From Candidatus Tayloriibacteriota bacterium (GTDB taxonomy: Bacteria > Patescibacteriota > Minisyncoccia > Phycocordibacterales > PALSA-1337): a stretch of 58,879 nucleotides of DNA. Positions 6,094 to 48,590 of this stretch are shown piece after piece. A model generated the notes under the pieces. That model was given only the letters and a program-made list of their open reading frames with translations, was not told the DNA's origin and ran no database searches. The first letter of the stretch is position 1, and every line of letters starts with the position of its first letter. Both the position numbers and the translations under genes were made by a program. The stretch is taken from contig JBAXSG010000004.1 in NCBI GenBank assembly GCA_037130865.1, forward strand, positions 1 through 58,879. Reading direction: 5' to 3'.

Positions 6094-6148
6094 TGAAAAA
6101 CTCTTAAGAAGCATGTGTTCCACCAGTCCGGGTCATTATCCGTATCAT
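6094..6148 (-). repeat. Partial copy (left arm plus upstream flank) of the dispersed hairpin element
   Basis: The reverse complement ATGATACGGATAATGACCCGGACTGGTGGAACACATGCTT matches 44222-44261 exactly. Confidence 0.9.
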
Positions 6149-6204
6149 AAAATGGCTTAAAATTGGAAAACCCGCCTCTATGAGCACGGATTTTCCGTGT
6201 ACAT

Positions 6205-6465
6205 TTAGACGGGTTGGGGATGTCTTCTACAGAGCTTCGATATCGCGGTAGCAATAGATTTTTTATCGAGTATCCTTCCTATGCTTTCTTTTCCGACGAC
6301 GACCTCATTTTTTCCGAGGATCTTTTTTTGCCGCATCAACATTTCCATTTTCTCCAACGGCAATTTTTCCAAAGAACTGATTGATAGTCGTATTTTTCCA
6401 GTCCCGATTTTTTCGATCCGTCGTACAGGTCTCAGGTCTACGGTCTGAATTAATATCAATATCAT
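6205..6465 (-). CDS. Hypothetical protein
   Basis: 86-aa ORF filling the gap between nrdJ and rnpB. No motif. Confidence 0.35.
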   Translation of the reverse strand: MILILIQTVDLRPVRRIEKIGTGKIRLSISSLEKLPLEKMEMLMRQKKILGKNEVVVGKESIGRILDKKSIATAISKLCRRHPQPV

Positions 6466-6561
6466 GAGCGACTCTTTTCTCGTGGTTGAGAGCTTTCAAG
6501 TATCATAATACAGGACTTTTTACGAACTTGTCAACCTTCCCGAAAAATGGTATATTCTTGA

Positions 6562-6920
6562 AGCACCACCAAACAACCGCGCCAGGTTCGCCCGATTCGC
6601 GATACTTCGTGAGCCGAGCGAACCTGGTGAGGAAAGTCCGAACTCCGGCATCGGTCGCAAGGCCGACGCAGCAGGGTAGTGGGTAACGCCCACCAGGATA
6701 ATAACCAGAGGTGCGAACAGTGACGAACCGATTTAGTTCGGGTGAAACGGCAAAATCCTTACCTCGGTGCAAGGCCGTGCTCTGTCCCGTCAAACGGATA
6801 GAGAGAGCCGCTTGAGGTGTGTGGCAACACACATCCTAGACAAATGGTTGTTTAGTCCGTTCGTTTTTCGCCGCAAGGCGGGAGGCGATCGGATGAACAG
6901 AATTCGGCTTATGGTGTGGC
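6562..6920 (+). ncRNA. rnpB: RNase P RNA (bacterial type A-like, reduced S-domain)
   Basis: GAGGAAAGTCCGAAC (P4 5' strand), GGGTGAAACGG, CCTAGACAAATG and ACAGAATTCGGCTTA (P4 3' strand). TGGTATATT -10 upstream and a terminator downstream. Confidence 0.95.
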
Positions 6921-6926
6921 AACATG

Positions 6927-6960
6927 AAGATACCCCGTTTATCGCGGGGTATTTTCTTTT
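6927..6960 (+). terminator. Intrinsic terminator after rnpB
   Basis: ATACCCCG/CGGGGTAT stem followed by a T-rich tail. Confidence 0.75.
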
Positions 6961-7032
6961 GGCGCAACCCGTCAAATTCTTTTCCACATATATTTCGTCG
7001 TGTCTTCTATGTTATCATTACGATAATAAGCG

Positions 7033-11868: not shown

Positions 11869-11890
11869 AATGCGGGTATGGTTTAGTGGT
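11869..11890 (+). repeat. Direct duplicate of the tRNA-Gly 5' end
   Basis: AATGCGGGTATGGTTTAGTGGT is identical to 11910-11931. Confidence 0.9.
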
Positions 11891-11912
11891 TTATTGTGGT
11901 CTGACAGACAAT

Positions 11913-11983
11913 GCGGGTATGGTTTAGTGGTAGAATGCGGCCTTCCCAAGGCTGAGACGGGAGTTCGATTCTCCCTACCCGCA
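11913..11983 (+). tRNA. tRNA-Gly(CCC)
   Basis: Cloverleaf with GCGGGTA/TACCCGC acceptor, anticodon loop TTCCCAA and GTTCGATTC T-loop. Confidence 0.95.
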
Positions 11984-11987
11984 CAGA

Positions 11988-16692: not shown

Positions 16693-16757
16693 TTATATTT
16701 TTTAGTATGGCCGGTTGATGGTTGGCTGACTGGCGGGCGAGCTAGCTGGCGGGCGGG

Positions 16758-16885
16758 ACACATACTTTTTAAGAGTTTTTCAAAGTGACAGAAAAGTTGT
16801 CACTTTTCAAAAGTGCTTAGGAGGGATGTGTGGGGGACATGTCCTACTGAGCACAGTGGCACTTTTAACGCCTTTTCCGTCAAAA
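16758..16885 (+). repeat. Dispersed hairpin element, copy A
   Basis: Core AAAGTGACAGAAAAGTTGTCACTTT within ACACAT...ATGTGT. Tail shared with copy D. Confidence 0.95.
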
Positions 16886-25798: not shown

Positions 25799-25840
25799 TT
25801 TTCCAAGTATCGCATATTTGAGCTCTTTTGGGTAGTTTTT

Positions 25841-25956
25841 ATGTCGAAATCTCCACTTCCGTCACTGGGAACATGTCTCCCACATATCCTCCCGAGCACT
25901 TTTGAAAAGTGACAACTTTTCTGTCACTTTGAGAAATACTCAAAAAGCATATGTGT
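25841..25956 (-). repeat. Dispersed hairpin element, copy B
   Basis: The reverse complement contains the core, and the tail GTGGAGATTTCGACAT is shared with copy E. Confidence 0.95.
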
Positions 25957-32565: not shown

Positions 32566-32574
32566 CCAATTATA

Positions 32575-36297: not shown

Positions 36298-36378
36298 GCT
36301 TGGGTGAACCTTATATTCTTACCGGCTTAAATATATCAGAAAATAGAAAAAATGCTATCATATCCATATCTACAATTT

Positions 36379-37071
36379 ATGTCAGCAGTAAATGAGAAAA
36401 CCAATGTGAAAATAGAACCCTCGTGGAAAACCGCCTTGGCCGGCGAATTTATGAAGCCGTACTTCGTTGAATTGACGGAGTTTGTGAAGGAAGAGTACAA
36501 ACAGACGACGGTTTATCCACCACCTGAGGATATTTTCAGAGCCTTCGATCTTTGTCCATTTGATAATGTGAAGGTCGTAATCCTCGGTCAAGATCCGTAT
36601 CATGGAGTAAATCAGGCAAATGGACTTTGCTTTGCTGTGCACGAAGGAATGAAGCTGCCACCATCACTACAAAATATCTTCAAAGAGATCAAAGCTGATC
36701 TAGGAATAAATCCAATAGCCGTAGCCGACGGCGATCTTTCGCGCTGGGCTAAGCAAGGAGTTTTACTACTAAATGCAACTCTAACAGTGCGCGCTGGTCA
36801 ACCAGGTTCGCATCAGGGTAATGGCTGGGAAGAATTCACTGACACAGTCGTGCGCGAGTTGTCGGAGAAAAAAGAGCATATAGTTTTTATCTTGTGGGGA
36901 AATTATGCGAAAAATAAAGGCGCGGCCATAGATCGCTCCAAACATCTCGTCTTAGAAGCGGCTCACCCGTCGCCATTTTCAGCTTACAACGGATTCTTCG
37001 GTTGCAAACATTTCAGCAAGGCGAATAAGTATCTCAAAGAGAATGGACTAGGTGAGATAGATTGGGGGTAG
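36379..37071 (+). CDS. ung: Uracil-DNA glycosylase (family 1)
   Basis: VVILGQDPYH, PPSL.NI, GVLLLN and AHPSP. Confidence 0.97.
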   Translation: MSAVNEKTNVKIEPSWKTALAGEFMKPYFVELTEFVKEEYKQTTVYPPPEDIFRAFDLCPFDNVKVVILGQDPYHGVNQANGLCFAVHEGMKLPPSLQNIFKEIKADLGINPIAVADGDLSRWAKQGVLLLNATLTVRAGQPGSHQGNGWEEFTDTVVRELSEKKEHIVFILWGNYAKNKGAAIDRSKHLVLEAAHPSPFSAYNGFFGCKHFSKANKYLKENGLGEIDWG

Positions 37072-37078
37072 ATTTTCT

Positions 37079-37168
<90 letters not shown>

Positions 37169-37260
37169 AGGAAGCTACAGTATTTTTTGGGCTGTTTTAC
37201 ATTATCAAAAAAAGTGATATATTGCTACTGGCCTTTATTGGCTACGCCGTGCGCACGCAT

Positions 37261-37332
37261 GGCCCTATCGTCTAACGGTTAGGACAGCGGGTTTTCAATC
37301 CGCTAATCGGGGTTCGATTCCCCGTAGGGCTA
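37261..37332 (+). tRNA. tRNA-Glu(TTC)
   Basis: GGCCCTA/TAGGGCT acceptor, loop TTTTCAA, GGTTCGATTCC. Confidence 0.92.
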
Positions 37333-37338
37333 CTGAAA

Positions 37339-37357
37339 CTTGCCGCTTCCGGCAAAT
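37339..37357 (+). repeat. 19-bp hairpin direct repeat, left border of the NYN islet
   Basis: CTTGCCGCTTCCGGCAAAT vs CTTGCCGCCACCGGCAAAT at 38475-38493 (17/19 identical). Confidence 0.7.
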
Positions 37358-37369
37358 AATCACCTCATA

Positions 37370-37397
37370 GAAAAACCGCTCAGTTGAGCGGTTTTTC
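37370..37397. terminator. Bidirectional intrinsic terminator
   Basis: GAAAAACCGCTCA / TGAGCGGTTTTTC inverted repeat. Confidence 0.8.
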
Positions 37398-37424
37398 TTT
37401 TGTCTAGCATTAGACAATATGCTG

Positions 37425-37607
37425 TCAAGACGTCAACCCCTTGAGGGGAGTCGAACTTTCAAAATCTACCCCCTTGCTTTTTTCAAGTTCTCTTCGTTCA
37501 TAGATGCGAAGTACGAGCACAAGATAGCGCTCAATGTTATCTTCTGCTTCCTGGAGCTGCTCCTCGGTGTAGTCTGGATACAAGTCGCGGATTGTTGGTT
37601 CATCCAT
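37425..37607 (-). CDS. Small helical hypothetical protein
   Basis: MDEPTIRDLYPDYTEEQLQEAEDNIERYLVLVLRIYER, within a tRNA-adjacent islet. Confidence 0.6.
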   Translation of the reverse strand: MDEPTIRDLYPDYTEEQLQEAEDNIERYLVLVLRIYERRELEKSKGVDFESSTPLKGLTS

Positions 37608-37707
37608 AGTAATTAGATGTTGGCTGATAAAATCGACCAATTGGAATCATACGGGTAAGATCCACGCTAGTTTTTTCGTTTTCAAATCTTTGATATAATC
37701 GGCAGCG

Positions 37708-38397
37708 ATGGATATTCAAGATTTCAAAAGAGAATATATTGTCGGTACCGAACTTGGTATTGACGCAACCTTCGGTAAAATTCTGACGGTTATTGATTTT
37801 GGTAATGTGAACTATTGGTTCGATGAAGATAGACAAGATGCTGAAAACAAAGCCCTGCAAGAAGATGAAAAGCTACGCATAAAATTGGATGGTCTGTACG
37901 ATTTCGTATCGCTCTTTTCAGATCATATTCGTTTTTATTATGGTCACGATTCAGAGAAGAAAGAGTCGCTGGCTTTCATTTCTGCGGCTAGGCACGTTTT
38001 CGGTAAGAGGGTTTACACCAAGCCAATGCAAAAGGTGCGTCACCATCTTTCTGCTGATGAAATCGAATCGAACAAACGTGCCACATTTACGGATAACGAG
38101 GGTGTATACATTCACCTCCCAAAATGCAATTTTGATGTTGAGATAAGCGTCGATCTGATCCGTCTCATGGATCGTTATGACACTGTGGCTTTGTTTTCTG
38201 GAGATGCAGATTTCGTCAGCCTCATTCGTTACCTCAAGAAGAATAGTAAGAAGGTTATTTTGTTCAAGGCTGGTTTCATTACAACCGACTTAAAAGAAGT
38301 ATCAGATAAGATTATCAATGCTCAGAACATCAAGAGGCATATCGCCGAGGTGGTAAAGCAAAAACCTGGCGTTAAGCCAGGTCTTGCGAATCGATAA
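37708..38397 (+). CDS. NYN domain (PIN-like) ribonuclease
   Basis: IDFGN, KCNFDVEISVD and LFSGDADF acidic catalytic motifs. Confidence 0.9.
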   Translation: MDIQDFKREYIVGTELGIDATFGKILTVIDFGNVNYWFDEDRQDAENKALQEDEKLRIKLDGLYDFVSLFSDHIRFYYGHDSEKKESLAFISAARHVFGKRVYTKPMQKVRHHLSADEIESNKRATFTDNEGVYIHLPKCNFDVEISVDLIRLMDRYDTVALFSGDADFVSLIRYLKKNSKKVILFKAGFITTDLKEVSDKIINAQNIKRHIAEVVKQKPGVKPGLANR

Positions 38398-38451
38398 CCC
38401 GTATCCACGGGCAGGTAGTTACAATATAGCAGATTGTGGATTGGCGGGCAA
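38355..38451 (-). ncRNA. Convergent promoter plus predicted ~60-nt antisense RNA overlapping the NYN 3' end
   Basis: Minus strand: TTGCCC-17-TATATT with extended TG, a GCCCGT/ACGGGT hairpin, then a GACCTGGC/GCCAGGTT stem with a U-tract. Confidence 0.5.
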
Positions 38452-38474
38452 TAGTTGCTGTAATGGTTCAATAG

Positions 38475-38493
38475 CTTGCCGCCACCGGCAAAT
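38475..38493 (+). repeat. 19-bp hairpin direct repeat, right border of the NYN islet
   Basis: Matches 37339-37357. Confidence 0.7.
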
Positions 38494-38686
38494 TTAGCCC
38501 TCTAGTTTTGCTTAACCACTAAGCTACCATCACCACGATGCTTCAATCCGGCCAGTAGACTCAAATCAGGCAACAAGCCCTGGCTATTTAAGGCTGAAAG
38601 CTTGTCGATAATTTGATTCCAAGTTCGAGGTATGTCATGATGTTGGCTACTTGGGAAGTGATGCTGTCGGGCATCTAGAGGAAAGT

Positions 38687-39259
38687 ATGATAAATAGAAA
38701 GAAAGCCGCTTATATAGCGGTTGCGTGTGTATTGGTGCTTGTGTGTGTGACAGCGTTCTGGTCCGGTAAGATATTTGGCAGTGATCTGAAGTTCGATACT
38801 AGTCGATATTATCCAGTGGATTTTGTTGTGGATGGTGATACATTTAAAGTAAATGTCGGCGCAAGCGACCGTGCGATTGCCGACAAGGAAATTATCACCG
38901 TGCGCGTGCTTGGAATAAATACTCCGGAGATTGTTGATCCACGAAAGCCGGTAGAATGTTATGGTCCGGAGGCTTCAATAGAAGCAAAAGAACTTCTAAA
39001 TGGTCGCAAAGTAAAACTGGTTTTCAATCCAAATAGGGAATTGAAAGATAAATATGGCCGCTACTTGGCTTATGTCTATCGCGATGACGGTTTGTTTTAC
39101 AATGAGGTTATGCTAAAAGGTGGCTATGCCAAAGAATATACTTACGGCACGGCATATTCCATGCAGAAAGAATTTCGCGGCATAGAGGCAGTCGCGCAAA
39201 AAGCAAAAGTGGGCTTATGGAGTGCATGTTCTAAAACGAACACCAAACGCTCGAACTAA
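38687..39259 (+). CDS. Thermonuclease (SNase-like), membrane-anchored
   Basis: VVDGDT, VRVLGINTPE, DKYGRYLAYV and N..ML..GYA. Confidence 0.93.
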   Translation: MINRKKAAYIAVACVLVLVCVTAFWSGKIFGSDLKFDTSRYYPVDFVVDGDTFKVNVGASDRAIADKEIITVRVLGINTPEIVDPRKPVECYGPEASIEAKELLNGRKVKLVFNPNRELKDKYGRYLAYVYRDDGLFYNEVMLKGGYAKEYTYGTAYSMQKEFRGIEAVAQKAKVGLWSACSKTNTKRSN

Positions 39260-40206
39260 GTACGTAAGTAGAGATAAATATCCTCAATAGCTTTGACGGC
39301 GTCGCCGGCGGCGATATTATTCTGATGGTAAAGTCCATCTGTGCAATCTCCAGCAGTCCAGATACCATCTACTGTTGTACGCTGATTTCGTGGATCGGTT
39401 ATGACATGGTTTGACTCGTTTAATTTTACGGTGGCATTTTTTGCAAAATCTGTGTTCGGAATAGCACCAATCTCGACGAATATTCCAGTCACTGGAATCG
39501 TGATGTCTTTTTTGCTTGTCGCGTCTGTGTATGTAAATGAAGTGACGAACTTATCTCCAGCGACTTCCTTTGGTACAGCATTGACGATGACTTTCATCTT
39601 CGGATTTTTACTCACAGCTTCGACTGTTCCTGGATCGGCTTTGAAAGTTGTGCCTCTGTAAAGGAGTGTCACACTCTTACAATACGCGAGTAGTTGCGCA
39701 GCACTTTCGAAGGCGGCATTACCTCCACCAATAACGGCGACATCTTGGTCGGAGTACATCGGTCCATCGCAAGTGGCACAGTAGGTGAGGCCTTTGTGTT
39801 CAAATTCTTTTGCGCCTTTTACGTCGAGTTTGCGTCTGCTACTGCCGCTGGCTATAAGCACGGCATTTGCGTTGTAAGAGTCTTTGTCTGTTCTTATTGA
39901 AAATGAACCGCCGGCGCCACTTGGTCGACCAATCTCTATGCAGGATTCACCATCTTTGAAAGTTAGAATCTCTTCGCCACTCACCTGGTCTTTTGCATAA
40001 GTCTTGGCATGTATTTCTAGGTTTTTCGATAGTTCGACTCCAGAAATAGCTGGAGTACCAACCCAATTCTCGATCTTCTCCGAAACCGAGCTCTGACCGA
40101 TCCAATCTTTTGCAATAACCACCGTGCGTAGGCGCTTACGTGCTGCATAAACAGCTGCAGCTGCTCCAGCTGGTCCGCCACCAATGATAGCTAGGTCGTA
40201 AGTCAT
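39256..40206 (-). CDS. trxB: Thioredoxin-disulfide reductase
   Basis: IIGGGPAG, YCATCDG, VIGGGNAA and AGD. Confidence 0.9.
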   Translation of the reverse strand: MTYDLAIIGGGPAGAAAAVYAARKRLRTVVIAKDWIGQSSVSEKIENWVGTPAISGVELSKNLEIHAKTYAKDQVSGEEILTFKDGESCIEIGRPSGAGGSFSIRTDKDSYNANAVLIASGSSRRKLDVKGAKEFEHKGLTYCATCDGPMYSDQDVAVIGGGNAAFESAAQLLAYCKSVTLLYRGTTFKADPGTVEAVSKNPKMKVIVNAVPKEVAGDKFVTSFTYTDATSKKDITIPVTGIFVEIGAIPNTDFAKNATVKLNESNHVITDPRNQRTTVDGIWTAGDCTDGLYHQNNIAAGDAVKAIEDIYLYLRT

Positions 40207-40304
40207 GATGATTGATTTTAGCATAAGATTTCGGATTGGCCAAAATCCTTAAGCTTTTTAAACAATCTTTAAGGTGTGGTCGAGATATGCTTATACTAAA
40301 GGGG

Positions 40305-40378
40305 ACACATACCTCCTAAGCACTTTTTAAAAGTGACAACTTTTCCGTCACTTTTAAAAACACATAAAAAGTATGTGT
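40305..40378 (-). repeat. Dispersed hairpin element, copy C (core only)
   Basis: ACACATAC...AAAAGTGAC-GGAAAAGTT-GTCACTTTT...GTATGTGT. Confidence 0.92.
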
Positions 40379-40467
40379 ACCCCCCTCATCTATTCATCAG
40401 GAAAATCTTAAGACATCATAAACAAAAAGCGCCTCACGGCGCATTTGTTTTCCTATTCAGTTGTTAC

Positions 40468-41688
40468 TTATTTCAACCTCGATCTTCGTAGAAATGCCGG
40501 TACTGCACCCCATTCATCATCGTCATCGGTCTTGGTGGCAGGAGTTGGTGTTGCAGGCTTCTTTATATCGACGACTTTTTCGGCAGAGTTGGAACCAGAA
40601 TTGGAATTATCACGCTTTGCTTCTGGTGCAGAATGGAAGATCTTACCTTTTTCTTTTTCACCACTTCTTCCGATAGAAGTTATTGTTGTCTCACCAAGCG
40701 ACATGCTTGAAGGTCTAGCAGAGGCAGTATTGCCTTCAGGAAAACCTGTGGCGATAACAGTGATCTTGATTTCATTTTTCTTAAGCTTATCATCACGGAC
40801 TGTACCGAAGATAATCTTGGCTTCTGGATCGATAGACTCAGTAATAACTTTCGCTGCGTCTTGGATTTCGAACATAGTGAGATCTTCACCACCAGCGATA
40901 GAGAAGAGAACACCTTTTGAACCGGTGATAGAAACATCAAGAAGAGGTGAGTTGATAGCAGCCTTAGCAGCTTCGATAGCACGATTCTCTCCGGTAGCCA
41001 AACCGATACCCATAAGAGCGGAGCCGGCATTTTCCATAACAGTGCGAATATCGGCGAAGTCTATGTTGATGATACCTGGAGTCGTTATCAAGTCTGAAAT
41101 ACCTTCAACAGCATGACGAAGTATTTCATCACACATTGAGAAAGCGTTTTTGACAGTTGTGCCTTTGTCTATAGCTGAAAGAAGGCGATCGTTCGGAATG
41201 ACGATGATAGCATCGACTTCTTTACGGAGTTCATCCAATCCAGATTCGGCGATACGGCCACGCTGGCGTCCTTCGAAGAAGAATGGCTTTGTGACTACAG
41301 CGACAGTGAGACATCCAAGCTCTTTTGAAATACGAGCGACCAATGGACTAGCACCAGTTCCTGTACCACCACCGAGACCGCAAGTGACGAAGACCATGTC
41401 TGCGCCTTTCAATGTGTCTTGTATCTCATCACGAGTCTCTTCCACAGCACGACGACCTAGGTCGGCATTCATACCAGTACCAAGTCCGCGTGTGAGATTT
41501 TTTCCGATATGGATACGCTTCTTAGCAAAAGATCTGTGGAGGTCTTGCGAGTCAGTATTTACAGCGATGAAATCAACACCCTTAACTTTGCTAGTTATCA
41601 TGTGGTTGACAGCGTTATTTCCGGAACCGCCGACTCCAATGACTTTTATACGGGCAAATGCTTCGATATCTGGGGTGATGTTTGGCAT
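40468..41688 (-). CDS. ftsZ: Cell division protein FtsZ
   Basis: IKVIGVGGSG.NAV, GGGTGTG, INIDFAD and C-terminal VPAFLRR. Confidence 0.98.
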   Translation of the reverse strand: MPNITPDIEAFARIKVIGVGGSGNNAVNHMITSKVKGVDFIAVNTDSQDLHRSFAKKRIHIGKNLTRGLGTGMNADLGRRAVEETRDEIQDTLKGADMVFVTCGLGGGTGTGASPLVARISKELGCLTVAVVTKPFFFEGRQRGRIAESGLDELRKEVDAIIVIPNDRLLSAIDKGTTVKNAFSMCDEILRHAVEGISDLITTPGIINIDFADIRTVMENAGSALMGIGLATGENRAIEAAKAAINSPLLDVSITGSKGVLFSIAGGEDLTMFEIQDAAKVITESIDPEAKIIFGTVRDDKLKKNEIKITVIATGFPEGNTASARPSSMSLGETTITSIGRSGEKEKGKIFHSAPEAKRDNSNSGSNSAEKVVDIKKPATPTPATKTDDDDEWGAVPAFLRRSRLK

Positions 41689-41766
41689 GGCGTCTATATT
41701 ATCACAGGTCGTCCAAGAAACAAGGGCTTTTTATGTGCCCCAAATAATGTTCTAATTTTATGGCAC

Positions 41767-42309
41767 TTATTTCATTAAAACCCAAATAGCCGCGATAGTC
41801 ACCAGTATTTCAACATAACAAGTATAGAGCTTTGTGTATTCTCTTGTGATGAAATGCCAGTAGTAGGAAAAAGTATGTGGTCCACCATCTATACCTTGAT
41901 AAGTATGGTTGAGCATATCAAATCTCTTTTCGGAAAATGGCCACAGCCACATCACACCATCTTCTATAGAATCGAATATCAGATGGCACCATGTACTAGT
42001 CAGAATTATCAATCCGATATATTTTGTAAGCTCTGATCCAAATACATAACCCAAACCAACCACGATGAGGCTCGAGATTAACCAAAAGATCGGTGTATGT
42101 GTGAAATAATTTCTGTGGCTTTCCACTTTCAATTTACCGCGTTTTTCTTCGTAAGAAAGTCTTAGTAGATCAATATCTGGCAAATCTCCAGCCAATGTTC
42201 CGACTATGAGCAATGCTTCTATTTGGCCATGACTTAAAGCTGGATGCGTCAAGGATAATAGCGCGAGTGTTGCTAAATATCCTCCAGCTAAATGTCCTGG
42301 TAAAACCAT
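41767..42309 (-). CDS. Inner-membrane metal-dependent hydrolase (YdjM/DUF457-like)
   Basis: PGH, LPDID, HR..FTHTP and HLIFD. Confidence 0.8.
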   Translation of the reverse strand: MVLPGHLAGGYLATLALLSLTHPALSHGQIEALLIVGTLAGDLPDIDLLRLSYEEKRGKLKVESHRNYFTHTPIFWLISSLIVVGLGYVFGSELTKYIGLIILTSTWCHLIFDSIEDGVMWLWPFSEKRFDMLNHTYQGIDGGPHTFSYYWHFITREYTKLYTCYVEILVTIAAIWVLMK

Positions 42310-42310
42310 A

Positions 42311-43492
42311 TTACGGCAAAAACTTAGCAAACCAGCGACGAGCTGCTCGTACGGAATTTTTCAAGAATTGGACAGAAGTATCTAGCTCAGGACCTTCTTC
42401 GGAATGTAATCCCCAGATACATAGACCGTAAGCAACCGCCCATGTGGCGTCTTTGAAGGAAGAATTGCCGTTTGTGATACCGATAGTTCCTATGCGCGCT
42501 GGAAGCTTGAGAGCAACTTTACCCATAGTGTCTATAGAGTTTAGTCCAGAACCACCACCAGTGATGACAATACCTGCAGGCAACAGACCATTGCGACCAA
42601 TCTTTTTTAAGTGTACTTCTATAAGTTCGAAAATATCCGAAAGTCTGGCGGAGATTATCTCTTCAAGTTTTTTGCGAGGATATGAACTACCAGTTATAGC
42701 ACCGACTTTAATCTGCTCAGCTTCTTCTAGTGGCACTTTCAGTCCAAGAGCAATATCGTTTGTAATGTCGGTAGAGCCGATAGGAAATACTTCGAGCGAA
42801 GTCGGTATATTGTTTTCGAAGACGGCGATAGAGACTGTCTCTGATCCTATGTTAGCCAGAACACATCCGGCGACTTTTTGCGATTTGGTTAGAGTGACGA
42901 AGCCGGCAGCGACTGGTGCGGCCATTATGTCTTCTACTTTTATTCCGGCCTCGTTGACTGCTTGGATAAGGTCGGCCACGTGATGATCGAGACATGTTAT
43001 GAATAATGTCTTGCGCTCTAGTTTATTGCCAGTGAGTCCGATAGGAGTACCAAGTGTTGGTACGCCGTCTATTTTATATTGAAGGGGAATATCGTATATA
43101 ATGCGTCGATTTGCTTTTGCTATATGAGGTATATCATGTTCACCTTGTTCGTCGAGTTTCTTCACATCTAAGTCGGTTATCTCGGCATCGGCACGCGAGG
43201 TTATGAGAGTGCTGTTTACCACAGTACTTGCCAATCCAATACCACCGACACCTATAAAAGCTTGTTTTATTTTTACTCCTGCCTTTTCTTCAGCGACTTC
43301 TACTGCGTGGCGAATACTGTCTGCGACATCGCGAACATTTGTGACATAGCCGTGTCGTAGACCACGAGATTCAGCAACACCGATACCGAGTATTTTCGGG
43401 AGTCCTTTTTCCGTCTTTTCTTTTCCGTCAGCGATAACGACCTTGATGCAGTATGTGCCGACATCTATTCCTGTGACTATTGTTCGTGCCAT
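42311..43492 (-). CDS. ftsA: Cell division protein FtsA
   Basis: GIDVGT..IK, S.GLRHG, IGS..ITNDIA..L and VITGGGS. Upstream of ftsZ. Confidence 0.94.
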   Translation of the reverse strand: MARTIVTGIDVGTYCIKVVIADGKEKTEKGLPKILGIGVAESRGLRHGYVTNVRDVADSIRHAVEVAEEKAGVKIKQAFIGVGGIGLASTVVNSTLITSRADAEITDLDVKKLDEQGEHDIPHIAKANRRIIYDIPLQYKIDGVPTLGTPIGLTGNKLERKTLFITCLDHHVADLIQAVNEAGIKVEDIMAAPVAAGFVTLTKSQKVAGCVLANIGSETVSIAVFENNIPTSLEVFPIGSTDITNDIALGLKVPLEEAEQIKVGAITGSSYPRKKLEEIISARLSDIFELIEVHLKKIGRNGLLPAGIVITGGGSGLNSIDTMGKVALKLPARIGTIGITNGNSSFKDATWAVAYGLCIWGLHSEEGPELDTSVQFLKNSVRAARRWFAKFLP

Positions 43493-43530
43493 ATTACTCT
43501 CAATAATAACATAGCCAGCGCTCTCGTGCA

Positions 43531-43869
43531 TCAAACCCCCAGTTTTTTACGTAAACTCGATTCCATGCGCTCCATCTTCGTGCCATGATCATAACCTTTC
43601 AAATGCACGCAGCCATGGAGGAATAGGAATTCAAGGAAATTCTCTGGTGTACGAGCAAACTTTTTCGCTTCTTTCTTTGCTTCGCTTCGCGAAATATAAA
43701 TCTCACCTTCATTTTTTGAAAGAGGGAAGCTTAAGATATCCGTAGCCTTGTTCTTATCTCTGTAAATGAGGTTGAGCTTGCGCATCTTCTCTGGCGTCGT
43801 AAACGAAAAAGACAGCGCATAGCTCTTGCCAAGCGCCGCTTCTTTTATTTTCTTGAATTTTTTTAGCAT
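43531..43869 (-). CDS. ybeY: rRNA maturation endoribonuclease YbeY
   Basis: LN..YR.K...TDILSF, GEIYI and HG.VHL.GYDH. Confidence 0.93.
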   Translation of the reverse strand: MLKKFKKIKEAALGKSYALSFSFTTPEKMRKLNLIYRDKNKATDILSFPLSKNEGEIYISRSEAKKEAKKFARTPENFLEFLFLHGCVHLKGYDHGTKMERMESSLRKKLGV

Positions 43870-43882
43870 TTTGCGATTGCTT

Positions 43883-43910
43883 GCGCTTTTTCTCTTGCGC
43901 CTTGCACTTC
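43883..43910 (-). repeat. Heptamer array (4 units), between rpsU and ybeY
   Basis: Minus strand: gaagtgc aaggcgc aagagaa aaagcgc. Confidence 0.75.
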
Positions 43911-43912
43911 TT

Positions 43913-44155
43913 TTATCTGCGTCTCTTTGTTTCTATAGGAGCTTTGCCGAGCTTGATGAGTTCTGCTGTTGCTGCTCTACGAGCCAATGTCTTCAATGTC
44001 TTCATCTTGATCTTGTAGTGTGACTGTACGCGGCTGTTATAACGGAGGCTACGCTTGCGAGGAATAACGCCAGAGCTTTGTACTTTGCGGCTGAAACGGC
44101 GCAGCATGCTGATGCCGTTCTCGTTAGGATTTCTGCTGATTTCTACGTTTATCAT
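43913..44155 (-). CDS. rpsU: 30S ribosomal protein S21-like
   Basis: VEI.R..NE....MLRRFSRKVQSSG, highly basic. Confidence 0.75.
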   Translation of the reverse strand: MINVEISRNPNENGISMLRRFSRKVQSSGVIPRKRSLRYNSRVQSHYKIKMKTLKTLARRAATAELIKLGKAPIETKRRR

Positions 44156-44221
44156 TGTGGAGAGTATATTAGCACGGGTTTTATAGGCATGCAAGTGGGG
44201 TTTTCTATTCTTAGTCATTTA

Positions 44222-44380
44222 ATGATACGGATAATGACCCGGACTGGTGGAACACATGCTTTTTGAGTGTTTTTCAAAGTGACAGAAAAGTTGTCACTTT
44301 TTAAAAGTGCCTCGGAGGGATGTGTGGGGGACATGTCCTAGTGAGCACAGTGGTACTTTTAACGCCTTTTCCGTTAAAAC
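44222..44380 (+). repeat. Dispersed hairpin element, copy D (longest)
   Basis: Upstream flank shared with 6094-6148, then the core, then a tail shared with copy A. Confidence 0.95.
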
Positions 44381-44411
44381 CCCCTATGTGCAGAATAATT
44401 TTTTGTCTTAA

Positions 44412-45638
44412 TTACTTCCAATACTGCGCCTCTATCTTCTTCATGTGCTTCGTCAGCTGATCCAGAGGAATGATTTCCTGAGCATGAGTCTCTGTGCGGC
44501 GGATGATTATAGTTTTCTCGACAGCCTCCTTCTTTCCCATAACGATGACATATGGAGTGTGATGTCTCTCAACAGATGATACTTGTGCACCGAGGCGATC
44601 TTTAGCAAGCGACAAGAATAACGGAATCTTCGCCAGGCGTAGTATTTCTATGATTGCTAGCGACATGAGTTTCGATTCGGGACTCAATTGCATGAAGGAA
44701 CTCAACGGCTTCTTTGATTTTGCGAGAGGTTTACGCAAAGCGGCGACATTGTTTTTTATGAGAAGGGAAATACCTACACCTTGAATATCACGCTTCATTC
44801 CTGCGCGCTTAGCTAGACTGTTATATCGAACTCCGATAGCAAGGATCTTCTGTTCGGCATTTACGATAGTGAATATAGTTTCTGTACAATATTTACGATT
44901 GCCAATGAGTCCGTTATTTATAGTATAAGGAATATTCAATGCCTCCAAGTATTCCAATACCTCTTCCAAGTGTCTGCGGCTCTGTTCGGAAAGGAAGTCT
45001 ATAGACTTTGGTGCAGCTGCGTTCAGTGCTTTGCAATCTGCACGATGGGATGAGAGTAGTTCAAAAGGATCACGCTTCAACACTTGGCGACATTCTGGAG
45101 TCATCTCATTTATATTTTTGCGATAATAAGCCGTCAACTCACGACTGAATCTGGTTATGGAATCGCGATCTCCGATCGAATTTATCTCGACTACAGTGTC
45201 AGTATATTTTTCTTCAGACAGCATAGCGCGAGCTGTTTGAATAAGTGTAGCCTCGGCGATACTTCCGGATGCACCCAAGATTTCCAAGTCAGCGTATCTC
45301 TGACCACTCTTTTTGAGCGGGCTTCTGCAAGTATCTTTGAAGTAGAGCATCACTGGCTGCGCGTGGTTGTGCATGTTCTGCTCATGATAAGTTCGTATGA
45401 AAGCGATTTTCTCTTCAGCGTGTAGAGGAAAGCGCGCATGATTTTCTGTTTCATCATCGACGAAGTCTCCATCGAGGATATCTTTCGCGGCTTTTATGTC
45501 GGCGTCATTTACTGTCGGGCTCTTCATTGGCATGAATCCATAGTAAAGAGCGATCTCACCGATCTTGTCTAAGTGATCATGAAATATGAATTTCGACTTA
45601 GAGCTTGATTTGGATTTTTTGCGAGGTTTGTTTTTCAT
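44412..45638 (-). CDS. Histidyl-tRNA synthetase-like protein with degenerate catalytic motifs
   Basis: INSIG, insertion-domain segment (C......PFELLS), L.....E.L.IPY..N..L and C-terminal anticodon-binding domain. Motifs 2 and 3 are eroded. Confidence 0.75.
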   Translation of the reverse strand: MKNKPRKKSKSSSKSKFIFHDHLDKIGEIALYYGFMPMKSPTVNDADIKAAKDILDGDFVDDETENHARFPLHAEEKIAFIRTYHEQNMHNHAQPVMLYFKDTCRSPLKKSGQRYADLEILGASGSIAEATLIQTARAMLSEEKYTDTVVEINSIGDRDSITRFSRELTAYYRKNINEMTPECRQVLKRDPFELLSSHRADCKALNAAAPKSIDFLSEQSRRHLEEVLEYLEALNIPYTINNGLIGNRKYCTETIFTIVNAEQKILAIGVRYNSLAKRAGMKRDIQGVGISLLIKNNVAALRKPLAKSKKPLSSFMQLSPESKLMSLAIIEILRLAKIPLFLSLAKDRLGAQVSSVERHHTPYVIVMGKKEAVEKTIIIRRTETHAQEIIPLDQLTKHMKKIEAQYWK

Positions 45639-45666
45639 GTTTTTGTTTTGCTCTATTTATTATCTA

Positions 45667-46311
45667 TTAATAAGTCGTCGATGATGCTGATCTGTATTCT
45701 CCAGGAAATATCGCTACTGATGTTGGTGGTAAGAGACGAATGAGTGGTCTGCCGGTTATAAAATGTGATTCGAGCGGACCCCAGACTCTGGAGTCGGAGC
45801 TTTGTGAGCGATTGTCTCCCATGACGAAATATTGTGTATTGGTCAAAGTTATATTTGAATTGTCGTGTGCAGCATGATCAGCTTCGATATAAGGTTCGGC
45901 GAGAGTAGTGCTCTGCGTGCTTGAAGCGCCAGTAACACTAGTTTTTTCCGTGACTGTGACTATTCCGTCTTTAATGTTCATCGTTTCGCCTGGAAGTCCA
46001 ATGATACGCTTTATATAGTAGACGCTCGGATCACCGGGATATTGGAAGACGACAACATCTCCACGTTGTGGTTTCTCAAAACGATATGAGAGACGATCGA
46101 CTATAAGGAATTGACCAGTTGAGAAGGTTGGATCCATGGAGGCACCATTTACTATAAATGGTTCAGCGATGAAGTATCTTATTGGTAGAGATATAAGTAC
46201 GGCGATGACGATGACTTTCACCCATTCCCATATAGTTTTCCAGAAAGTAGATGAAGGCGTGGCAATACTTGGCACAAGATTTTCTTTATCATTGTGCGGG
46301 GTTGAATCCAT
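45667..46311 (-). CDS. lepB: Signal peptidase I
   Basis: GASMDPT (Ser), YIKRIIGLPG (Lys) and GDNR..S.DSR. Confidence 0.95.
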   Translation of the reverse strand: MDSTPHNDKENLVPSIATPSSTFWKTIWEWVKVIVIAVLISLPIRYFIAEPFIVNGASMDPTFSTGQFLIVDRLSYRFEKPQRGDVVVFQYPGDPSVYYIKRIIGLPGETMNIKDGIVTVTEKTSVTGASSTQSTTLAEPYIEADHAAHDNSNITLTNTQYFVMGDNRSQSSDSRVWGPLESHFITGRPLIRLLPPTSVAIFPGEYRSASSTTY

Positions 46312-46377
46312 GTTGCGGCCATTTTAGCATTTTAATGAGTTTGACACAATAGAAAAAGATGTGCGACAATGAAAATC

Positions 46378-46977
46378 ATGTCATACATCATTGTAGGTTT
46401 AGGAAATCCAGGTGAAGAATATATCGGTACGCGCCATAATACCGGTCGTATCGTCTTGGATGCTGTCGCAAAAGAGCAAGGTATCGACGGCGAGTTCAAG
46501 TTTAATAAAAAGGTCAATGCTCATGTCGCCGAAACAAAGATCGGAAAAGAAAAAGTGACTTTGGTAGAGCCGGATACATTTATGAATCTTTCGGGGAAGT
46601 CCGTTGCACAGTTGGTGAAGAGCGTGAAGGCGGCAGAGAGGCTCGTCGTCATTTACGATGATTTTGCTTTACCGCTTGGTCGTATAAAAATCTCTTTCAA
46701 TAGAAGTTCTGGCGGACACAATGGAGTGGAGTCGATCATCAAAGCTCTGAAGACTGAAGCCTTCGTCCGCATCCGTGTCGGCACCGCGCCCGAGAAAGCC
46801 AATGGCGACGCCAAAGTTCCGCACGGCGACGAAAAAGTCCTCAAGTTTATTTTGAGTAAGTTCAAAGAAGACGAGTTGAAGGTTTTGAAAAAGGTTGGCA
46901 AACGCGCCGCCGAAGCTGTTGAAGTCTTGGTACGCGAAAGCCGCGAGAAGGCCATGAGTGTTTATAACGCGGGGTGA
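46378..46977 (+). CDS. pth: Peptidyl-tRNA hydrolase
   Basis: IVGLGNPG.EY..TRHN.G, TFMNLSG and SGGHNG. Confidence 0.96.
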   Translation: MSYIIVGLGNPGEEYIGTRHNTGRIVLDAVAKEQGIDGEFKFNKKVNAHVAETKIGKEKVTLVEPDTFMNLSGKSVAQLVKSVKAAERLVVIYDDFALPLGRIKISFNRSSGGHNGVESIIKALKTEAFVRIRVGTAPEKANGDAKVPHGDEKVLKFILSKFKEDELKVLKKVGKRAAEAVEVLVRESREKAMSVYNAG

Positions 46978-47010
46978 TTGCGCTTATTCGTTTTTATTCG
47001 CAGTGCGCTA

Positions 47011-48288
47011 CTATTTCTTCTCACCAGTGAAACTCAAAGCCATCTTCTGATCCTTTGGATCAAATAATACTATCTTGAAACCATAAGTTTTGCCGAGCTC
47101 CAAAGTCTTTCGGAGTTTCTCTTCGGAACCAAATTCGGAGACATGGACTAGACCGGCAACACCTTCCTCTATAGAGGCGAGAGCGCCGTGGCGATTGAAC
47201 TTGATAACAACACCGGTGACGGCCATATCCTTCTTGTATTTCTTGGCAGCTTCAGTCCAAGGATTTGCCTTGAGCTGTTTGAGTGACAAAGAAATTTTGC
47301 CATCTTTGACTTCGATAATCTTGGCGCGGATCTTCTGACCAACCTTAACGAATTGGCGAGGATCTTCCACTAGACCCCAATCAATCTCGGAAATATGGAT
47401 AAGTCCTTCGAGATTTTCTTCAAGCTTGACGAAGACTCCGAAATCAACAACGCCAGTAACGGTGCCATCGACTTCATCTCCAACTTCATACTTGCTGACA
47501 ATCTTTTCCTTTTCTTTTTGTTCGGAACCCTTTTCTGAGAAGATAAGTTTACCTTCTTTTGGATCAGCTGTGATGATAGAAACACCAATATGCGTTCCAA
47601 CAAGTTTCTTTAGTTCATCGAGGATCTTGTCTTTGTCGCCATCAGCGATACGAGGATAATGCTCCGCCTTCAGTTGTGAAGCTGGAAGGAATCCCATAAT
47701 ACCTTGCCATTCTATGAGAAGACCGCCCTTGTTTGCCTCCTTGATAGGAAGTTCAAGAACTTTCTTTTCGCGAATAGCTGTTTCTGCTTCGCTCCAGATA
47801 AGAGCTGTGCGAGCTTCCTTGAGTGATAGTTCATAGTAACCGTCTTTGTGCGCTGTGTCGACAATTTTAGCAGCGATGACGTCGCCAACATTTATCTTCT
47901 TGATAACGTCGCGTGCTGTCATGAATTCACGACCGTAAATAATACCTGTACCAAATGGTGCCAAGTCTATATATACAGCGGACTTCTCAACTGCGATGAC
48001 TGGACCTTCAACGAGGTCGCCGATTATTGGAGGATTCTTTGCTGTAGATGTTAAAGTTCCCATGACTGTCGTTTTTTCTTCCACGACAACAGCCACCTTT
48101 TTCTTAGGTGCATTTGATTTTGTTACGGTTGCAGACTTGCGAGACTTTTTCTTCGGTTCGCCGGTTTCGGTCGCTACGGATTTTGTGGTGACCTTGGTAT
48201 CTGCGACTGTTTTGTCTATCTTCTCGTCTGACTTACTATCCTCGGACTTTTTTGCGTGGCTCAATGTAGCCTTTAATTTATTGAACAT
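47011..48288 (-). CDS. rpsA: 30S ribosomal protein S1 (S1 repeats, long Lys/Thr-rich N-terminal extension)
   Basis: Repeated S1 domains (NKGGL, GFLPASQL, DFGVFV, EGLIHISEI). Confidence 0.88.
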   Translation of the reverse strand: MFNKLKATLSHAKKSEDSKSDEKIDKTVADTKVTTKSVATETGEPKKKSRKSATVTKSNAPKKKVAVVVEEKTTVMGTLTSTAKNPPIIGDLVEGPVIAVEKSAVYIDLAPFGTGIIYGREFMTARDVIKKINVGDVIAAKIVDTAHKDGYYELSLKEARTALIWSEAETAIREKKVLELPIKEANKGGLLIEWQGIMGFLPASQLKAEHYPRIADGDKDKILDELKKLVGTHIGVSIITADPKEGKLIFSEKGSEQKEKEKIVSKYEVGDEVDGTVTGVVDFGVFVKLEENLEGLIHISEIDWGLVEDPRQFVKVGQKIRAKIIEVKDGKISLSLKQLKANPWTEAAKKYKKDMAVTGVVIKFNRHGALASIEEGVAGLVHVSEFGSEEKLRKTLELGKTYGFKIVLFDPKDQKMALSFTGEKK

Positions 48289-48472
48289 TTGTGTGACGCG
48301 CTCCGCTTTTTAGATTAATAATAATATTGCGGGATAACGCGAAATTGTTAATGACTTGCTTCTAACTCGACTCTAACTTGCTTATCACTGACTGCGACAA
48401 ATCTAGCATGAATAAGGGTTATTTGTCCAATTTGGATGTTGAATGATCGCGCTCGTTTCTGGCACCCCTATG

Positions 48473-48590
48473 ACACATGCTTTTTGCATGTTTTTCAAAG
48501 TGACAGAAAAGTTGTCACTTTTCAAAAGTGCCTCGGAGGGATGTGTGGGAGACATGTCCTAGTGACAGGGGTGGAGATTTCGACATGAAA
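48473..48590 (+). repeat. Dispersed hairpin element, copy E
   Basis: Core plus tail GTGGAGATTTCGACAT shared with copy B. Confidence 0.95.

What the first reader, a model, noticed from the sequence alone, without database searches (positions are those of the whole stretch)
6094..48590. Dispersed modular hairpin element in six intergenic copies
Seen: copies at 6094-6148(-), 16758-16885(+), 25841-25956(-), 40305-40378(-), 44222-44380(+) and 48473-48590(+). The ~75-bp core ACACAT(A/G)C-TTTTT...AAAGTGAC(A/G)GAAAAGTTGTCACTTT...GGAGG-(G/T)ATGTGT folds into one long hairpin. The outer stem needs G-U pairs on one strand only, and copy A (TAAG/CTTA) vs copy B (TGAG/CTCG) looks compensatory. The flanks are modular: A and D share one right tail, B and E share another, and D and the 6094 copy share a 40-bp left flank. 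No transposase or target-site duplication is visible. Five copies lie upstream of a gene start. Inference: a non-autonomous mobile element (MITE/REP/ERIC-like) or a multicopy structured RNA acting single-stranded. I do not recognise the family.
Basis: partly seen in the sequence, partly recalled or inferred. Interest (0 to 1): 0.75.

Follow-up and report, generated by a model that had tools for sequence, protein, structure and literature searches.

The report
Modular hairpin repeat family in a CPR genome
The six sites are real copies of a small, non-coding, hairpin-forming repeat that has been gained and lost between genes in one genus of ultra-small (CPR) bacteria; it is a new family of an already familiar kind of selfish DNA, and what moves it is unknown.

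Summary
The window has five full copies and one half copy of a 75-nt imperfect palindrome. The whole 678-kb genome has 17 full and 2 half copies, all between genes. The hairpin is supported by covariation across 48 copies from at least 10 species. Its wobble pairs fall on one strand. The apical stem-loop (GTGAC-N9-GTCAC) is found in 24 of 93 genomes of this genus, with species-specific variants, and essentially not elsewhere in the order. Related metagenome genomes show clean filled versus empty sites. One is a 196-nt insertion with no target duplication. They also show in-place inversion of the apical loop and of the whole core. No Rfam family, Ssn motif, phage or plasmid matches. The genome holds no Y1, TnpB, DDE, rve or IS110 transposase. 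Orientation is random relative to genes and to GC skew.

Best reading: a non-autonomous REP/BIME/BOX-like mobile repeat that depends on a hairpin in one single strand. This scan has already noted similar families in other CPR genomes. Interest is moderate.

The parts
6094..6182 (-). Half copy. It has the first 25 nt of the core's 5' arm (6094-6118), cut at the base of the apical hairpin, plus the 64-nt left-flank module (6119-6182). It lies 31 nt after the stop codon of the ribonucleotide reductase gene.
   Evidence: (I1, I9)
16752..16885 (+). Full copy. Core hairpin 16758-16832, a short GGACATGTCC palindrome, then tail type 1 (to 16885) with its own small hairpin. It lies between the divergent enolase and methyltransferase genes.
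   Evidence: (D1)
25837..25956 (-). Full copy. Core 25881-25956, tail type 2 at 25837-25870. It lies about 40 nt upstream of the glycosyltransferase gene start. A congener (G070) and a metagenome relative (L094) also carry a copy at this site; G070's is in the opposite orientation.
   Evidence: (I8)
40304..40385 (-). Full copy with the best-paired hairpin (-33.4 kcal/mol) and no tail. It lies between ftsZ (after that gene's own terminator at 40429-40442) and the thioredoxin-reductase-like gene.
44188..44422 (+). Longest composite. Left-flank module 44188-44251, core 44252-44326, palindrome plus tail type 1 to 44379, then a 43-nt extension (44380-44422) shared with G000:C29:8287-8330. The extension contains the stop codon of the HisS-like gene on the opposite strand.
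48467..48613 (+). Full copy. Core 48473-48547, tail type 2 to 48600, then the accessory module GGCTTAAAATCG at 48602-48613. It lies in the 650-nt spacer after the divergent ribosomal protein S1 gene.

Best explanation
This is a genus-specific family of small, non-coding, non-autonomous mobile repeats. It belongs to the same broad kind as REP/BIME, BOX, ERIC and MITE elements.

Each unit is a roughly 75-nt imperfect palindrome with three layers:
- an outer clamp, ACACATG...CATGTGT, which includes a pyrimidine-rich 5' arm opposite a GGAGG-containing 3' arm;
- an apical stem-loop, GTGAC-N9-GTCAC;
- exchangeable flank modules.

Shown:
- Copies are gained and lost at orthologous intergenic sites between related genomes.
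- The one exact event has no target duplication.
- The arms stay complementary through compensatory changes.
- The wobble pairs fall on one strand.
- The apical loop, and sometimes the whole core, inverts in place.

Inferred:
- The element spreads and persists through a hairpin formed by one defined single strand, most likely single-stranded DNA during replication or repair, as with REPIN and IS200/IS605-type elements.
- It is moved in trans by an enzyme that is not recognisable in this genome, or by host replication or repair (template switching).
- It has no essential cell function. It survives only where insertion is harmless, which means next to stop and start codons of housekeeping genes.
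For: Copy number and placement
- 17 full and 2 half copies in 678 kb, all intergenic.
- Two cores are identical, and mean pairwise identity is 86.5%.

Structure
- 94.8% of cells are paired within the genome.
- Across 48 copies from G000, G070, ten other congener loci and six metagenome relatives, 85.8% are paired against 43-59% for slid controls. 19 of 29 pairs have changes on both sides, and 0 of 500 shuffles reach this.

One-strand wobble
- The RNA fold is about 10 kcal/mol better on one strand.
- Wobble pairs number 89 against 9 on the other strand in 17 G000 copies, and 66 against 24 in 13 G070 copies.
- P is about 0.004 for 12 representatives, even when orientation is chosen per element to maximise the bias.

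Distribution
- The apical motif occurs in 24 of 93 genomes of the genus, at 1-17 copies, with species-specific inner stems that stay complementary. The reversed-pattern control hits 1 of 93.
- It occurs in 4 of 299 genomes of other genera of the order, at 1-2 hits each with unrelated loops.

Mobility
- G000:C29:16305-16428 (124 nt with a copy) corresponds to 12 nt in L075.
- L077 has a 196-nt insertion with a copy where G000:C23 is contiguous at 36696|36697, directly after a stop codon and with no duplication.
- L075 has a full copy where G000 keeps only a 5' remnant, and a half copy where G000 has a full one.
- 11 of 12 congener copies checked lie at places where G000 has none.

DNA-level hairpin behaviour
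- The apical loop is reverse-complemented between orthologous copies: L073 versus C28:34588, and L072 versus C7:2990. The same occurs among G000 paralogs.
- The whole core is inverted relative to its flanks in G070 at the 25881 site, and in L077 relative to the accessory module.

No orientation rule
- In co-directional gene pairs, 4 copies are sense and 3 antisense. Four copies lie between convergent genes (my reading).
- 10 copies agree with local GC skew and 7 do not.

Neighbours
- Neighbouring genes are ordinary housekeeping genes.
Against: - No mobilising enzyme was found. G000 (93.9% complete) has no hit for Y1_Tnp, the TnpB zinc-ribbon domain, rve, DDE_Tnp_1 or IS110.
- Y1 transposases in congeners do not track the motif. 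They occur in 12 of 24 motif-bearing genomes against 37 of 69 without it. Their loci carry no hairpin.
- Only two clean gain/loss events were seen, and no event within a population.
- Copies at the same site in genomes about 85-89% identical are as conserved as the flanking coding DNA, while the other spacer DNA is unalignable. This fits selection for a host function, or gene conversion, as well as it fits selfish persistence.
- A one-strand wobble bias with random orientation is not explained by any demonstrated mechanism.
- The composite units differ from site to site, so no single fixed mobile unit can be defined.
Confidence: 0.6

Rival explanations
1. The hairpin is a host-serving element that acts in RNA. 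It would mark mRNA boundaries as a 3'-end stabiliser, weak bidirectional terminator or insulator between transcription units. It is kept by selection, and its spread is secondary.
For: - The wobble pairs are G-U type, and the RNA fold is much stronger on one strand.
- Cores at orthologous sites are conserved about as well as coding DNA, while neighbouring spacer is not.
- Copies sit right at gene ends and starts.
- The apical stem is flanked by an A-run and a T-run.
Against: - Orientation relative to flanking genes is random: 4 sense and 3 antisense in co-directional pairs.
- The loop and the whole core flip in place. A strand-specific RNA role would not tolerate this.
- The consensus scan does not list the three copies in 40000-50000 among its 16 terminator-like sites. 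The 40304 copy sits behind a separate classical terminator.
- 69 of 93 congeners lack the motif entirely.
- Orthologous spacers are empty in relatives with no visible substitute.
Confidence: 0.15
2. The conserved GTGAC...GTCAC palindrome is a binding or action site in double-stranded or cruciform DNA. The binding protein would be a host or mobile-element protein, such as a nucleoid protein, a regulator or one of the recombinases. The surrounding repeat would only be its carrier.
For: - The five outer bases of each apical half-site are nearly invariant across species whose outer arms have diverged.
- A third half-site-like AGTGAC follows the core in the tailed copies.
- The genome encodes four large serine recombinases and one Xer-like tyrosine recombinase.
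Against: - The two variable inner stem pairs stay complementary through double changes. At one of the two pair positions the counts are A-U 17, C-G 14 and G-C 13. A double-strand binding site does not require this.
- The wobble bias is one-stranded.
- The half-site is not enriched outside the elements: 17 occurrences outside, against 40 for the reversed word.
- No recombinase gene lies on a contig that holds a copy of the main family.
Confidence: 0.12
3. The element is copied through an RNA intermediate by one of the genome's reverse transcriptases. This would be retro-mobilisation, and it would explain G-U pairing and flanks that vary as carried-along sequence.
For: - G-U-type asymmetry.
- Variable flank modules shared between subsets of copies.
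- Four RVT_1 genes in the genome, which earlier notes describe as DGR-type.
- All three half copies keep the 5' arm.
Against: - There is no poly-A or priming signature.
- No reverse transcriptase gene lies near any copy.
- DGR reverse transcriptases are known for template-to-target copying at fixed sites, not for dispersal (recalled, not tested).
- Differences between copies show no adenine-specific pattern by eye.
Confidence: 0.06

Closest known systems
REP / BIME elements and REPINs of Proteobacteria (mobilised by RAYT Y1 transposases)
   Same: - Short extragenic imperfect palindromes in many copies.
- The hairpin matters on one strand.
- Mosaic combination with other short motifs, as in BIMEs.
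- No target-site duplication.
- Clustered, with either orientation.
   Different: - No RAYT or any Y1 gene in this genome. Y1 genes of congeners do not track the motif.
- The unit is a single 75-nt hairpin, not a 20-40-nt REP or a REP doublet.
- There is no GTAG-type 5' tetranucleotide (that feature is recalled).
- Only 17 copies.
- Found in CPR bacteria.
BOX elements of Streptococcus pneumoniae, and ERIC/IRU of enterobacteria (features recalled, not checked in a paper here)
   Same: - 100-200-nt intergenic units that fold into a long stem-loop.
- Built from exchangeable modules, with end modules that pair.
- No own coding capacity and no assigned transposase.
- They sit next to housekeeping genes.
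   Different: - No sequence relation was tested, because no library of these elements was on hand. Rfam gave nothing.
- Different phylum.
- The apical hairpin and the outer clamp are each conserved separately here.
MITEs (miniature inverted-repeat transposable elements)
   Same: - Size.
- 7-nt terminal inverted repeat (ACACATG/CATGTGT).
- Non-coding and multicopy.
- Presence/absence polymorphism.
   Different: - No target-site duplication at the one exact insertion.
- No parent IS with matching ends, and no DDE transposase, in the genome.
- The inserted unit varies from site to site.
NTS / Ssn-related motifs cut by SsnA GIY-YIG single-strand nucleases (PMC11893778; abstract and sections 6 and 17 read)
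   Same: Dispersed hairpin repeats with an oriented, non-palindromic flank, clustered around genes and acting as single-stranded DNA.
   Different: - The published degenerate SRM pattern matches 0 of 17 cores. It matches 5 places in the genome against 0-5 in shuffles.
- The only GIY-YIG gene is a 404-aa UvrC next to uvrA.
Hairpin repeat families noted earlier by this scan in other CPR genomes (e1-994213, e1-781197, e1-1020755 and others)
   Same: - Same host group.
- Same anatomy of conserved ends clamping a paired stem.
- Intergenic, at gene boundaries.
- No partner enzyme.
   Different: No shared sequence: the look-up by sequence found no look-alike in any window. Those notes are unchecked AI notes.

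Membership tests
REP/REPIN (RAYT-dependent) | A RAYT (Y1 HUH transposase) gene in the same genome | tested here: not met
   PF01797 has no match in G000, which is 93.9% complete. The control genomes ring in 6 of 14.
REP/REPIN (RAYT-dependent) | Extragenic imperfect palindromes forming a hairpin on one strand, in many copies | tested here: met
   17 intergenic copies. One-strand fold and wobble bias.
MITE | Terminal inverted repeats | tested here: met
   The ends ACACATG and CATGTGT pair in 13-16 of 16 distinct copies, depending on the position.
MITE | Target-site duplication flanking the insertion | tested here: not met
   The 196-nt insertion in L077, compared with the contiguous G000:C23 36696|36697, has no duplicated bases. 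The second event (C29:16305-16428) is ambiguous.
MITE | A related autonomous IS with the same ends, or a DDE transposase in trans | tested here: not met
   No rve, DDE_Tnp_1 or IS110 hit in G000. No phage or plasmid match to the composite.
IS200/IS605-derived palindrome-associated elements | Hairpins like those at the ends of a Y1 (TnpA) or TnpB-bearing IS in the genome or its kin | tested here: not met
   No Y1 or TnpB in G000. The model finds no hairpin in four congener Y1 loci, L060-L063.
Ssn-related motif (NTS/SRM) | Match to the published degenerate SRM pattern | tested here: not met
   0 of 17 cores match. Genome count is 5 against 0-5 in 10 shuffles.
Ssn-related motif (NTS/SRM) | A small ssnA-type GIY-YIG nuclease gene | tested here: not met
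   The single PF01541 hit is a 404-aa UvrC beside uvrA.
Described structured RNA (Rfam) | Match to a curated covariance model | tested here: not met
   At gathering thresholds, only 5 tRNAs in the window. At E up to 1 on 44100-49000, which holds two copies, nothing falls on the elements.
Intrinsic terminator | G+C-rich stem directly followed by a U-run | tested here: not met
   None of the three copies in 40000-50000 is among the 16 terminator-like sites. The run after the stem is only 4 T.
BIME/BOX-type mosaic repeats | Units assembled from a small set of exchangeable modules | tested here: met
   Two tail types, two left-flank modules and an accessory 12-mer next to 6 copies. There are also sibling units with the same clamp but another apex.
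BIME/BOX-type mosaic repeats | Binding of host proteins (IHF, gyrase) or sequence kinship with those families | not testable with these tools
   No binding data and no library of those repeats were on hand.

The most novel reading that the evidence does not exclude
The family, with its look-alikes in other CPR lineages, could be a mobile hairpin system that works without any known transposase class.

- A strand-specific hairpin with separately swappable apex and clamp modules would be copied to new gene-boundary sites by a CPR-specific enzyme. The four large serine recombinases, the reverse transcriptases, or an unrecognised single-strand nuclease are candidates. Alternatively it could be copied by replication template-switching alone.
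- The strictly conserved GTGAC/GTCAC apex would be the recognition site.
- Conservation of old copies would reflect domestication as gene-boundary elements in genomes that have almost no spacer DNA.
Probability: 0.15. Interest if true: 0.7.

Novelty: new member of a known kind. Interest (0 to 1): 0.4.

Why it matters
CPR bacteria have some of the smallest and most streamlined genomes known. This 678-kb genome still keeps about 20 copies of a repeat with no recognisable enzyme to move it.

Why that is useful:
- **Open question.** Together with similar families this scan has noted in other CPR lineages, it points to an unstudied route of small-element mobility or maintenance in these organisms. 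Two full-text searches found no paper on MITE or REP elements in CPR bacteria.
- **Assembly.** The copies break short-read assemblies at their edges, so they help explain why such MAGs are fragmented.
- **Strain and species markers.** Presence/absence at orthologous sites and the species-specific apex variants can serve as markers.
- **Hairpin behaviour in vivo.** The in-place loop inversions are a natural read-out of DNA hairpin formation in uncultured cells.

Tried and rejected
Population polymorphism
- Logan contigs of four lake-water runs were laid on 30000-49900.
- Contigs end at the element edges (44251/44393, 48502/48531), and depth in the element bins is about 3 times that of neighbouring bins.
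- No contig joins across an element, so this gives no evidence on empty sites within the population.

Expression
- No RNA holder was listed, so nothing can be said about transcription.

Partner enzymes
- Y1, the TnpB domain, rve, DDE_Tnp_1 and IS110 gave no hit.
- The Y2_Tnp search was uninformative, because its controls rang nowhere.
- Phage_integrase gave one Xer-like gene.
- The Resolvase and RVT_1 hits lie on contigs without main-family copies.

Other readings tested
- DNA-uptake-sequence idea: the half-site is not enriched outside the elements.
- Own promoter: none of the 30 promoter-like sites in 40000-50000 lies in a copy.
- Replication-strand bias: 10 copies agree with GC skew and 7 do not.
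- Ssn/NTS: rejected.
- Integron attC and CIRCE-like operators were considered from memory. Both were dropped because there is no integron integrase, the neighbours are housekeeping genes rather than cassettes, and the half-sites differ.

Orthologs versus paralogs
- Same-site copies in relatives rank 4th, 10th, 14th and 8th of 17 in similarity to their G000 counterpart. Copy history could not be resolved.

Polarising the C29:16305-16428 event
- In the genus-wide search, the spacing between the two flanking matches in several congeners is about 55-105 nt shorter than in G000. Examples are G009, G084, G035 and G080.
- I worked these figures out by hand from the listed coordinates. Synteny is not kept everywhere, so this is only a hint that the empty state is ancestral.

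Full report
**1. The observation**

All six sites are present.
- a 134-nt direct family (16752, 44246, 48467);
- inverted matches to 25888-25954 and 40305-40385;
- an 89-nt inverted match between 6094-6182 and 44188-44276.

The window is contig C26 of a 678-kb, 31-contig genome.

BLAST and a covariance model built from the copies (alignment A1, model R1) find 17 full cores:
- C26: 5
- C29: 4
- C28: 2
- C5: 2
- C3, C7, C30, C2: 1 each

They also find two half copies, at C26:6094-6118 and C29:18875-18900.

The apical motif GTG[AT]C-N9-G[AT]CAC occurs 18 times against 0-5 in shuffles, and 17 of the 18 are the cores. All copies lie between the long open reading frames. In the window the neighbours are ordinary housekeeping genes: ribonucleotide reductase, enolase, a methyltransferase, a family-2 glycosyltransferase, PheS, a thioredoxin-reductase-like protein, FtsZ, a HisS-like protein and ribosomal protein S1.

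**2. Anatomy**

The core is a 75-nt imperfect palindrome.
- Its ends (ACACATG / CATGTGT) pair.
- A run of T in the 5' arm lies opposite GGAGG in the 3' arm, giving four or five wobble pairs.
- The apex is a 9-10-bp stem with a 5-nt A/T-rich loop.
- As RNA the named strand folds at -27.4 to -33.4 kcal/mol (z -4.5 to -8.6). The complement folds at -17.6 to -22.2 kcal/mol. DNA parameters give the same ranking with smaller gaps.

Ten copies continue with a short GGACATGTCC palindrome and one of two tails, each with its own small hairpin. Five copies end in a C-rich stretch that extends the palindrome.

Several modules are shared between subsets of copies:
- A left-flank module is shared by 44188-44251, 6119-6182 and, in part, C29:2988-3006. 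Another left-flank module is shared by the C7 and C30 copies.
- A 12-mer, GGCT[TA]AAAATCG, occurs 7 times in the genome. All 7 are intergenic and 6 lie beside a copy.
- The composite at 44188-44422 and the copy at C29:8394 share a further 43 nt. This stretch contains the stop codons of two unrelated convergent genes, read in different frames.

Sibling units carry the same clamp around a different apex, at C28:32783-32857, C27:32992-33066, C1:3146-3221 and partly C29:2880-2935. So apex and clamp behave as separate modules.

**3. Structure evidence**

Within the genome:
- 94.8% of pair cells are standard pairs, against 42-66% when the partner is slid.
- The apical pair switches between A-U (10 copies) and G-C (5 copies).

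I then aligned 48 copies (A3): 17 from G000, 6 from metagenome relatives, 13 from congener G070 and 12 from eight other congeners. On this alignment:
- 85.8% of cells pair, against 43-59% when slid.
- 19 of 29 pairs show changes on both sides.
- No shuffle of 500 reaches any of the five measures.

The shuffle control ignores relatedness, so it is support rather than a probability.

Wobble bias:
- Wobble pairs fall on one strand: 89 against 9 in G000 copies and 66 against 24 in G070 copies.
- G070's arms differ in sequence from G000's and have wobble pairs at additional positions.
- For 12 species-level representatives the bias has P of about 0.004, even when each element's orientation is chosen to maximise it.

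**4. Distribution**

- Earlier notes of this scan describe the genome as a Paceibacteria-type CPR bacterium. The only record with two matches in the all-species scan is titled Candidatus Taylorbacteria.
- The model hits 10 of 36 congeners and 1 of 24 other families, at 25-49 bits.
- The strict apical pattern occurs in 24 of 93 genomes of the genus, at 1-17 copies. The reversed-pattern control occurs in 1 of 93.
- In a sample of the order, the pattern occurs in 4 of 299 genomes of other genera. Each has 1-2 hits with loops of a different kind.
- Each species has its own inner-stem variant, always complementary.
- No Rfam family, phage or plasmid record matches. No earlier window of this scan shares the sequence.

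**5. Gain, loss and rearrangement**

A scan of metagenome contigs returned two kinds of result.
- Contigs identical to this genome. One 79-kb contig joins C29, C3 and C5, so 7 full copies lie within 79 kb.
- Relatives at 77-95% identity.

Four sites are filled in both G000 and a relative, in the same orientation: C28:37450, C28:34588, C26:25881 and C7:2990. The copy at 48473 also aligns with a copy in a 95%-identical relative (L088), where it is cut by the end of the locus.

Two sites differ cleanly.
- G000:C29:16305-16428 holds a copy (124 nt) where L075 has 12 nt between two convergent stop codons.
- L077 has a 196-nt insertion where G000:C23 is contiguous at 36696|36697. The insertion consists of an accessory module, a core and a C-rich right part. 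It lies directly after a stop codon and has no duplicated target bases.

Other differences:
- L075 has a full copy next to the remnant that G000 keeps at C29:18875-18900. It has only a 5' half where G000 has the full C29:24224 copy.
- All three half copies keep the 5' arm and break at the apical hairpin.
- Of 12 congener copies examined, 11 lie at places that are empty in G000.

Inversions:
- The apical loop is reverse-complemented between orthologous copies (L073 versus C28:34588, L072 versus C7:2990) and among G000 paralogs.
- The whole core is inverted at the site upstream of the glycosyltransferase gene in G070 compared with G000.
- The whole core is also inverted relative to the accessory module in L077 compared with G000:C2.

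These inversions are what replication template-switching or recombination at DNA hairpins produces.

**6. What it is not**

- *A structured RNA gene or terminator.* Orientation is random relative to genes: 4 sense and 3 antisense in co-directional pairs, with 4 convergent spacers. No promoter-like or terminator-like site falls on the copies in 40000-50000, and one copy follows a separate classical terminator.
- *Tied to the replication strand.* 10 copies agree with GC skew and 7 do not.
- *An uptake sequence or a common operator.* The half-site is not enriched outside the elements.
- *An Ssn/NTS motif* (PMC11893778, sections 6 and 17 read).
- *Paired with a known transposase.* No Y1, TnpB, rve, DDE_Tnp_1 or IS110 transposase is present. 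Y1 genes in 49 of 93 congeners do not track the motif, and their loci lack the hairpin.
- The genome does encode one Xer-like recombinase, four large serine recombinases and four reverse transcriptases. None lies on a contig with a main-family copy.

**7. Reading**

The best-supported explanation is a non-autonomous, modular hairpin repeat of the REP/BIME/BOX/MITE kind.

- *Shown:* multicopy, intergenic placement; a conserved and covarying hairpin; one-strand wobble pairs; restriction to the genus with species-specific variants; gain and loss at orthologous sites without target duplication; in-place inversions.
- *Inferred:* it depends on a hairpin in one defined single strand, probably DNA. 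It is moved in trans by something not yet recognisable, or by host replication or repair. It persists where it does no harm.

Two points weigh against a purely selfish reading.
- Old copies are about as conserved as the flanking coding DNA, while other spacer DNA is unalignable.
- The wobble bias has no demonstrated cause.

**8. Novelty**

Two full-text searches found no paper on MITE or REP elements in CPR bacteria (listings only). This scan's own unchecked notes report at least 34 comparable hairpin families in other CPR genomes. This is therefore a new family of a familiar kind. It fails the defining tests of REP/REPIN, MITE, IS200/IS605-derived and Ssn-type elements, while working much like them. 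I rate interest as moderate.

Noticed in passing
window 48639-48880: Just after the 48473 copy lies a tRNA-like 3' half with a T-arm and acceptor end (48639-48706). It gives a weak tmRNA match at 21 bits, E 1e-5. Next come a good promoter-like site (48731-48758) and a structured stretch ending in a terminator (48849-48870). A weak permuted-tmRNA match spans 48679-48798. ARAGORN finds no tmRNA anywhere in the MAG. Pieces of this stretch are conserved in several congeners on other contigs. It may be a divergent or two-piece tmRNA gene.
   Followed up: partly
window 44380-44422 and G000:C29:8287-8330: A 43-nt extension of the repeat supplies the last codons and stop codons of two unrelated convergent genes, read in different frames. 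One is the HisS-like gene. The other is a 901-aa ORF.
   Followed up: partly
G000:C28:32783-32857, C27:32992-33066, C1:3146-3221, C29:2880-2935: Sibling hairpin units share the outer clamp of the main family but carry different, G+C-rich or unrelated, apical hairpins.
   Followed up: partly
G000:C28:40515-40578 and C5:15354-15428; G070 loci L051-L057: A second palindromic repeat family. In G070 it sits about 60-120 nt to one side of six of the 13 main-family copies. In G000 it occurs alone at two places.
   Followed up: no
G000 contigs: All 17 main-family copies lie on 8 contigs (about 249 kb). None lies on the other 23 (about 429 kb, including C1, C12, C23 and C27). C29, C3 and C5 are one 79-kb stretch in another assembly, so the copies are regionally clustered.
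   Followed up: partly
window 22490-22523, 26225-26258, 26887-26920, 52639-52686, 58584-58645: Short runs built from 7-nt units of the AAGGCGC / AAAGCGC type recur at eight places, some in tandem with a 14-nt spacing.
   Followed up: no
window 58667-58724 and 58822-58879: Two 58-nt direct repeats, 98% alike and 155 nt apart, lie at the very end of the window.
   Followed up: no
window 11869-11902 next to tRNA-Gly (11913-11984): A 34-nt near-duplicate (85%) of the 5' part of the tRNA-Gly gene lies directly upstream of it.
   Followed up: no
G000:C12:34234-34677, C12:5169-5606, C27:41009-41440, C6:15159-15596; C23:58609-59211, C1:43868-44509, C9:937-1545, C6:51-485: Four large serine recombinases (473-568-aa frames) and four reverse transcriptase genes sit in a 678-kb genome.
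   Followed up: no
G000 contigs C14, C18, C19, C21, C22: Five small contigs (1.6-3.9 kb) have 59-64% G+C, against about 43% for the rest. They are probably binning contaminants.
   Followed up: no
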